From Octopus vulgaris (Eukaryota): 64,000 nt of DNA. The first letter of the stretch is position 1. Every line of letters starts with the position of its first letter. Position numbers and translations under genes: made by a program. The notes under the pieces were generated by a model. It ran no database searches and had not been told where the DNA came from. It was given only the letters and a program-made list of their open reading frames with translations. Location: positions 19,220,001 through 19,284,000 of the forward strand of contig OX597822.1 of the NCBI GenBank assembly GCA_951406725.2. The letters run 5' to 3'. Positions 32,949 through 32,998 of this stretch are shown piece after piece.

Positions 32949-32998
32949 TTTGTCAGTGAACAGGTCGCGGATTTTAGCGACGAAAATATTTTGACAAA
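32949..32998 (+). ncRNA. Non-canonical minimal type I hammerhead ribozyme motif (G3-C8 variant), right-arm copy
   Basis: TTTGTCA-GTGAACA-G-GTCGC[GGATTTTA]GCGAC-GAA-AATATT-T-TGACAAA: 7 bp stem I, 5 bp stem II, palindromic stem III. Confidence 0.6.

What the first reader, a model, noticed from the sequence alone, without database searches (positions are those of the whole stretch)
32949..32998. Non-canonical hammerhead with a compensatory G3-C8 core swap and an extra base after A9
Seen: 7 bp stem I (TTTGTCA/TGACAAA), core GUGAACA in place of CUGANGA, one extra G, 5 bp stem II (GTCGC/GCGAC), GAAA, self-complementary stem III AATATT, and a UUU triplet with predicted cut after 32991. An identical copy lies at 31274-31323. 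Known: C3 and G8 form a Watson-Crick pair in the active fold, and the C3G/G8C double change partly rescues activity. An extra nucleotide after A9 is tolerated in a viroid hammerhead. Palindromic stem III is typical of dimer-acting Penelope-type hammerheads. Inference: both core changes fall on the two positions that pair, which argues for selection on catalysis. Standard CUGANGA searches would miss this motif, so it may mark an overlooked ribozyme-bearing mobile family. A decayed third copy lies at ~53105-53220.
Basis: partly seen in the sequence, partly recalled or inferred. Interest (0 to 1): 0.85.

Follow-up and report, generated by a model that had tools for sequence, protein, structure and literature searches.

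The report
Flipped-core hammerhead in octopus retrotransposon
This 50-base stretch is a hammerhead-shaped RNA motif carried about 6,000 times by a Penelope-type jumping gene, with two paired core letters swapped (G-C where sister elements have C-G or U-A); it likely still cuts its own RNA slowly, which has not been tested, and standard hammerhead searches miss it.

Summary
The motif is real. It is the minimal type I hammerhead in the terminal repeat (pLTR) of a young Neptune-like Penelope retrotransposon: 6,164 genomic matches, G3 in 6,000. Longer copies encode RT plus a C-terminal GIY-YIG nuclease, and one tandem copy has the motif on both sides of the ORF, 56 nt before its ATG. The 'identical copy' is the inverted arm of the same insertion, on the opposite strand, so it is not independent evidence. 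The extra base after A9 and palindromic stem III are normal for Penelope hammerheads. The 3-8 swap does covary between lineages: G-C here, C-G in sister families of this genome, C-G or U-A in metagenomic relatives (15 of 15 rows paired, few independent events). Within the family, departures look like neutral decay. Natural U3-A8 is published; I found no natural G3-C8 in the papers held, but four key papers were unavailable. Cleavage is untested, and an intact sister family carries A9C, so selection on cutting is likely, not shown. The scan noted G3:C8-like motifs in Penelope tails of two other genomes before (unchecked). Verdict: new variant of a known kind.

The parts
32949..32998 (+). Minimal type I hammerhead motif with G3-C8 core pair; predicted cut after 32991
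32956..32963 (+). Core G3-U4-G5-A6-A7-C8-A9 plus the extra G typical of Penelope minimal hammerheads
   Evidence: PMC4209133
32985..32990 (+). Palindromic stem III (6 nt), predicted to pair between two motifs
31979..33081 (+). 5'-truncated Penelope-like element copy: last codons of the GIY-YIG domain (stop 32064-32066), about 0.9 kb repeat-rich 3' UTR, hammerhead, short 3' end without tail
33048..33081 (+). Start of the element's ORF (ATG 33048) inside the pLTR, 56 nt after the predicted cut
31127..31946 (-). Inverted 5'-truncated copy of the same element, with the long 3' end
31274..31323 (-). Second, identical hammerhead motif on the opposite strand
31127..31185 (-). About 55-nt tail, made of the first codons of the ORF (ATG 31218), present on this arm only
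31101..31126 (.). (TA)n target, left side
33082..33110 (.). (TA)n target, right side
52251..52293 (-). Old-subfamily copy of the motif (G3, U8, 4-nt palindromic stem III), part of an old inverted pair at about 52189-52391
53102..53220 (-). Decayed pLTR fragment of the same family, hammerhead broken by substitutions and a deletion

Best explanation
The motif is the terminal-repeat hammerhead of a Neptune-like Penelope retrotransposon in which the core 3-8 pair is G-C instead of C-G, and it likely still cuts RNA slowly, as a predicted dimer and probably with help from the element's protein. Shown: the motif sits about 0.9 kb behind an RT/GIY-YIG ORF and 56 nt before the ATG of the next ORF copy; in a tandem copy two same-sense motifs flank the ORF 4,261 nt apart; the 3-8 pair is G-C in all three subfamilies, C-G in sister families and C-G or U-A in farther relatives. 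Inferred: in a read-through transcript two motifs would pair through their stem III palindromes, each would be cut after U17, and a unit-length RNA with a 5'-OH just upstream of the start codon would be released. G-C is likely derived once from C-G. The window's own two copies are likely passengers: they face outward on opposite strands, and a transcript across both would fold back into a long duplex that hides the motif.
For: Linked RT + CX3CX2C linker + GIY-YIG ORF (839 aa open in L032, 1,025 aa in L231). Tandem pLTR-ORF-pLTR in L233. 6,164 matches, control 0, G3 in 6,000. Sister family B (54% protein identity, 100/100 sister in the tree), found by protein with no core constraint, has C3-G8 at the same place; 2,259 canonical matches share its extra G and stem II start, control 6. 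Relatives found by protein in metagenomes carry C-G or U-A at the same place. Alignment of 15 rows: 3-8 paired in all (CG 8, UA 4, GC 3), stem II cells 100% paired, 0 of 500 shuffles reach the score, slid controls 0.002-0.2 against 0.89. Between old and young subfamilies N7, loop II and the length of the stem III palindrome changed while the core stayed fixed. C3G/G8C partly restores cleavage in a Penelope hammerhead, which needed the element's protein (PMC11167929).
Against: No cleavage was observed here. The young, intact sister family has C at core position 9 in 34 of 34 motifs in 20 loci, so lineages can spread with an altered core. Hammerhead mutants did not reduce insertion in vitro and no RNA-seq ends were found at the cut site in the anole element. 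The covariation rests on few events (one G-C lineage), rows are related, and 3 of 15 rows came from a pattern that demanded C3 and G8. No motif was recognised behind 7 of the 20 metagenomic loci read, some of them truncated. The 6-bp AU palindrome alone is barely stable (-0.2 kcal/mol), and the minimum-energy dimer is not the active fold. A 101-nt context folds no better than shuffles.
Confidence: 0.72

Rival explanations
1. The motif descends from a hammerhead and keeps its fold, but it no longer cuts to a useful extent; the fold would be kept for protein binding, template recognition or translation of the ORF that starts 56 nt downstream.
For: A9C fixed in the intact sister family and also seen in L173; cleavage not needed for insertion in vitro; very low activity of metazoan minimal hammerheads. 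A C-G to G-C flip has to pass through an unpaired state or a double change (inference).
Against: The 3-8 pair is a tertiary contact of the active fold and is kept in three different letter states; U4, G5, A6, G12, A13, A14 are invariant in the 15 rows.
Confidence: 0.2
2. The motif is an efficient, stand-alone ribozyme that would cut as a monomer at any genomic copy, including this locus.
For: Stems I (7 bp) and II (5 bp) are stable.
Against: Stem III is 2 bp around a 2-nt loop; stem I is open (type I) and no loop I/loop II contact was identified; single minimal motifs showed no activity in PMC4209133; the inverted arm would pair with it at this locus.
Confidence: 0.06
3. The resemblance is chance: the sequence would be part of a terminal inverted repeat of a DNA transposon or foldback element.
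For: At this locus the two copies form a large inverted repeat; no Rfam hammerhead match among 106 matches at E up to 5.
Against: Copies are 5'-truncated at many places, end at two fixed 3' ends followed by (TA)n, and continue upstream into an RT/GIY-YIG ORF; the orthologous motif in sister families has the canonical core.
Confidence: 0.02

Closest known systems
Minimal type I hammerheads in pLTRs of metazoan Penelope-like elements (Cervera and de la Pena 2014, PMC4209133)
   Same: Type I order, unpaired base between positions 9 and 10.1, G10.1-C11.1 pair, short palindromic helix III, place in the pLTR, thousands of mostly solo copies, pairs on opposite strands.
   Different: 3-8 pair is G-C; the text read reports C3-G8 and the natural variant U3-A8 only. 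Stem I is 7 bp (4-5 bp in the Schistosoma families).
Hammerhead of Poseidon from Anolis carolinensis, PAc (Frangieh et al. 2024, PMC11167929)
   Same: Hammerhead in the pLTR next to the ORF start; two 3' ends, the tail made of early ORF codons; AT-rich targets. The engineered C3G/G8C double mutant is this natural core.
   Different: PAc is naturally C3-G8, belongs to the Penelope/Poseidon clade, and its start codon lies inside the hammerhead; here it lies 56 nt after the cut site.
Natural hammerhead core variants (Perreault et al. 2011, PMC3088659)
   Same: Natural covariation of the 3-8 pair.
   Different: The section read lists U3-A8, not G3-C8.
Neptune and Nematis clades of Penelope-like elements (Craig et al. 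2021, PMC8557442)
   Same: RT followed by a CX2-5CxxC linker and C-terminal GIY-YIG; partial tandems, inverted 5'-truncated copy, one-sided tail, (TA)n targets.
   Different: Tail about 55 nt rather than 30-40; clade not fixed by a tree with reference elements.
Non-LTR retrozymes (PMC7229834; bioRxiv 10.64898/2026.07.22.740005)
   Same: Type I hammerhead in an animal repeat, related to Penelope pLTRs.
   Different: Retrozymes are short non-coding tandem repeats; this motif belongs to a coding element and is dispersed or inverted.

Membership tests
Penelope minimal type I hammerhead | Stems I and II closing the core in type I order | tested here: met
Penelope minimal type I hammerhead | Core letters C3 and G8 (CUGANGA) | tested here: not met
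   G3 and C8; hence filed as a variant
Penelope minimal type I hammerhead | Watson-Crick pair between positions 3 and 8 | tested here: met
   G-C here; 15 of 15 rows paired in three states
Penelope minimal type I hammerhead | Other core letters U4 G5 A6 A9, G12 A13 A14, A15.1-U16.1, H17 | tested here: met
   A13 in 97 of the first 100 listed copies, counted by hand
Penelope minimal type I hammerhead | Unpaired base after A9, G10.1-C11.1, short palindromic helix III | tested here: met
   features listed in PMC4209133
Penelope minimal type I hammerhead | Location in the pLTR of a Penelope-like element | tested here: met
Penelope minimal type I hammerhead | Self-cleavage after H17, as a dimer | not testable with these tools
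   needs an assay; only contigs were available
Rfam hammerhead families | Match to an Rfam hammerhead model | tested here: not met
   none among 106 matches at E up to 5
Neptune/Nematis Penelope-like element | Single ORF with RT and C-terminal GIY-YIG | tested here: met
   GIY-YIG E 1.6e-4, 22.3 bits against a cut-off of 22.6; the 839-aa frame as a whole gave no Pfam match; RT motifs read by eye, RVT_1 weak in relative P0003
Neptune/Nematis Penelope-like element | CX2-5CxxC linker and CCHH motif in the nuclease | tested here: met
   read from the translation; cysteines invariant in 42 aligned proteins
Neptune/Nematis Penelope-like element | Tandem and inverted pLTRs, one-sided tail, (TA)n targets | tested here: met
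   (55 of 63 motifs with a readable end have (TA)n within 80 nt; 6 more had no readable end; some loci overlap), 86
Neptune/Nematis Penelope-like element | Placement among reference Neptune versus Nematis elements in an RT tree | not tested
   no named reference sequences were at hand; the tree holds unnamed relatives only
Non-LTR retrozyme | Short non-coding head-to-tail repeats, each with a hammerhead | tested here: not met

The most novel reading that the evidence does not exclude
This is an undescribed natural, cutting G3-C8 hammerhead, amplified to thousands of copies, and one of a hidden set of Penelope hammerheads with altered cores (G3-C8, A9C, U15.1-A16.1) that dimer or protein help makes tolerable; a partner's intact core would let a lineage cross the unpaired state, and CUGANGA-based surveys would undercount such ribozymes, including in elements now called hammerhead-less.
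Probability: 0.35. Interest if true: 0.62.

Novelty: new variant of a known kind. Interest (0 to 1): 0.44.

Why it matters
The C3G/G8C swap has been a laboratory rescue experiment for the hammerhead's tertiary pair. Here it is fixed in a successful natural element, next to sister families with C3-G8 and with A9C in the same genome and the same sequence frame. That series allows a direct test of an open question: whether Penelope elements need their hammerhead to cut. It also shows that searches fixed on CUGANGA or CUGANGA/UUGANAA miss about 6,000 motifs in this one genome.

Tried and rejected
Rfam scan: no hammerhead. My first patterns missed the commonest form and suggested an A13G subfamily; one search showed A13 in 97 of 100 listed copies, so that was decay. 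Covariation inside the family: 17 double changes, 8 Watson-Crick against 6.9 expected from the margins (P 0.38); all 10 tight-context C3 copies keep C8; this is post-insertion decay and says nothing about selection. An old G3-U8 subfamily as an intermediate: 11 of 29 old copies had U8, but the query itself had U8 and no other position separated them from the 14 C8 copies; in the unbiased pattern G3 went with U8 in 7 and C8 in 160. Expression and cut ends: no RNA holder listed; four runs laid were contigs, which cannot show ends. Viral contigs held no relative. Pfam found nothing on the 839-aa frame. Cofolding did not give the active dimer. Rows left out of the RNA alignment: L181 (G12 to A; L183 and L186 are the same family), L197 and L199 (decayed), and seven loci with no recognised motif. 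Papers PMC5785218, PMC1986816, PMC3004062 and PMC3334697 are not held, so the novelty of natural G3-C8 stays open.

Full report
Observation. The described elements are present at 32949-32998. The 50-mer folds into stems I and II with z -3.4, and a strict descriptor with a free Watson-Crick 3-8 pair gives 2 hits in the window and 0 in 200 resamples. The copy at 31274-31323 is identical as a reverse complement only. Both belong to one inverted structure spanning about 31127-33081, bounded by (TA)n on both sides. The decayed copy near 53102-53220 is real, on the minus strand and broken; an older copy lies near 52251-52293. Rfam gives no hammerhead among 106 matches at E up to 5.

What carries it. 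A DNA search gave 1,368 candidates, the 40 scored being 99-100% identical. Copies are truncated at varying 5' points and end at two fixed 3' ends followed by (TA)n. [quoted passage not shown] The ORF begins inside the terminal repeat, 56 nt after the predicted cut, and the long 3' end is its first codons. L233 is a tandem with two same-sense motifs 4,261 nt apart around the ORF. This is the architecture described for Penelope-like elements with a linker Zn finger (passages of PMC8557442). 'Neptune-like' rests on these features, not on a tree with references. The closest database protein is labelled Octopus vulgaris by its source and is encoded at 99-100% identity in this genome.

Within the family. 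A pattern with positions 3, 7 and 8 free matches 6,164 places, control 0; both arms of inverted pairs count, so insertions are fewer. 164 have a letter other than G at 3. Of the first 100 listed, counted by hand, 94 have G3 and C8. Of 17 double changes 8 are Watson-Crick, against 6.9 expected: neutral decay. An older subfamily also has G3-C8, with C7, a 6-bp stem II, a 4-nt stem III palindrome and a different outer stem I pair. So the swap is old in this lineage, and what changed since are the positions a hammerhead leaves free.

Between families. A sister family with intact 1,312-aa ORFs (54% identical) was found by protein alone. At the same place in its repeat it has C3-G8, the same extra G and a stem II differing by a compensated pair. 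Its young copies have C at position 9 (34 of 34 motifs in 20 loci). A pattern demanding the canonical core and this stem II start matches 2,259 places, control 6, and several of 30 fetched lie behind nuclease remnants. Forty metagenomic loci of relatives were fetched. A scan of all 40 without a 3-8 constraint gave 12 hits against 3 per shuffle, three of them behind the ORF on its strand. Reading behind 20 loci, I recognised motifs in 9 distinct ones (C-G 5, U-A 4; two further loci repeat one family), 2 decayed ones and none in 7. None was G-C. In an alignment of 15 rows the 3-8 pair is kept in all (CG 8, UA 4, GC 3) and stem II is fully paired with many two-sided changes. The rows are related and chosen by me; three came from a pattern that forced C-G; the other 12 were found without such a constraint. 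In a 16-row protein tree the two octopus families are sisters (100/100) inside a group whose other motif-bearing members are C-G (3) or U-A (1). A single origin of G-C from C-G is the parsimonious reading; the root is a midpoint and no clade test was run.

Mechanism. Known: C3 pairs with G8 in the active fold and the double swap partly rescues (passages of PMC8495972). Penelope minimal hammerheads carry an unpaired base after A9 and a palindromic helix III, are inactive as monomers and weakly active as dimers (PMC4209133, parts 1-2 of 4 read). In the anole element the hammerhead cut only with the element's protein, C3G/G8C partly rescued, cleavage was not needed for insertion in vitro, and no RNA-seq ends marked the site (PMC11167929, parts 1-3 of 4 read). 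Inferred for this family: tandem transcripts bring two motifs together, the palindromes pair, and cuts after U17 release a unit RNA whose 5' end lies just before the start codon. In such a dimer a core cuts the partner's site, which could let a lineage pass through an unpaired 3-8 state (my inference). At the window's locus a transcript over both arms would fold back on itself, so these copies are likely idle. Against a strict need for cutting stand the A9C sister family and the in vitro result; the dimer was not the minimum-energy cofold.

Novelty. Hammerheads in Penelope repeats, the extra base and natural U3-A8 are published (PMC4209133; section 8 of PMC3088659). Searches for natural G3-C8 found only engineered mutants (also passages of PMC3884650). 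Passages of PMC6765202, PMC7229834, PMC11014351, PMC6962438 and bioRxiv 10.64898/2026.07.22.740005 (part 1 of 5 plus passages) added nothing on it. Lunse 2017, Przybilski 2007, Seehafer 2011 and Hammann 2012 are not held, figures are not held, and one supplement of PMC4209133 could not be searched; any of these may already show a G3-C8 case. Two earlier notes of this scan describe G3:C8-like motifs behind Penelope RT genes in other genomes; I did not check them and they are not used as support.

Verdict. Observation confirmed; interpretation partly supported. A well-supported natural G3-C8 variant of the known Penelope minimal hammerhead, with cutting likely but untested. Interest 0.44.

Noticed in passing
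L123-L142 (sister family B, 3' UTR and pLTR): The young family with intact 1,312-aa ORFs has C at hammerhead position 9 in 34 of 34 motifs, while older relatives have A9; L173 also has C9 with U3-A8. A second natural core variant.
   Followed up: partly
L174:4835-4884: Hammerhead-like motif behind the ORF with U15.1-A16.1 instead of A-U and a palindromic stem III.
   Followed up: no
window 52189-52391: Old inverted pair of very short pLTR fragments of the same lineage; one arm has G3/U8.
   Followed up: partly
window 31962-31980: At the junction of the two arms a piece of about 20 nt of the nuclease-coding end is inverted.
   Followed up: no
window 16329-19427 (-): LINE-like endonuclease (281 aa) and RT (750 aa) frames in register, separated by one stop; class judged by eye only.
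   Followed up: no
window 2422-4566 (+): 714-aa open frame resembling a LINE reverse transcriptase, judged by eye.
   Followed up: no
window 19554-21950: Purine-rich array of 162-bp units nested in units of about 955 bp, near-identical copies.
   Followed up: no
window 55162-55669: Inverted repeat with nested arms (124 and 79 nt, 86-88% complementary); may be another inverted element.
   Followed up: no
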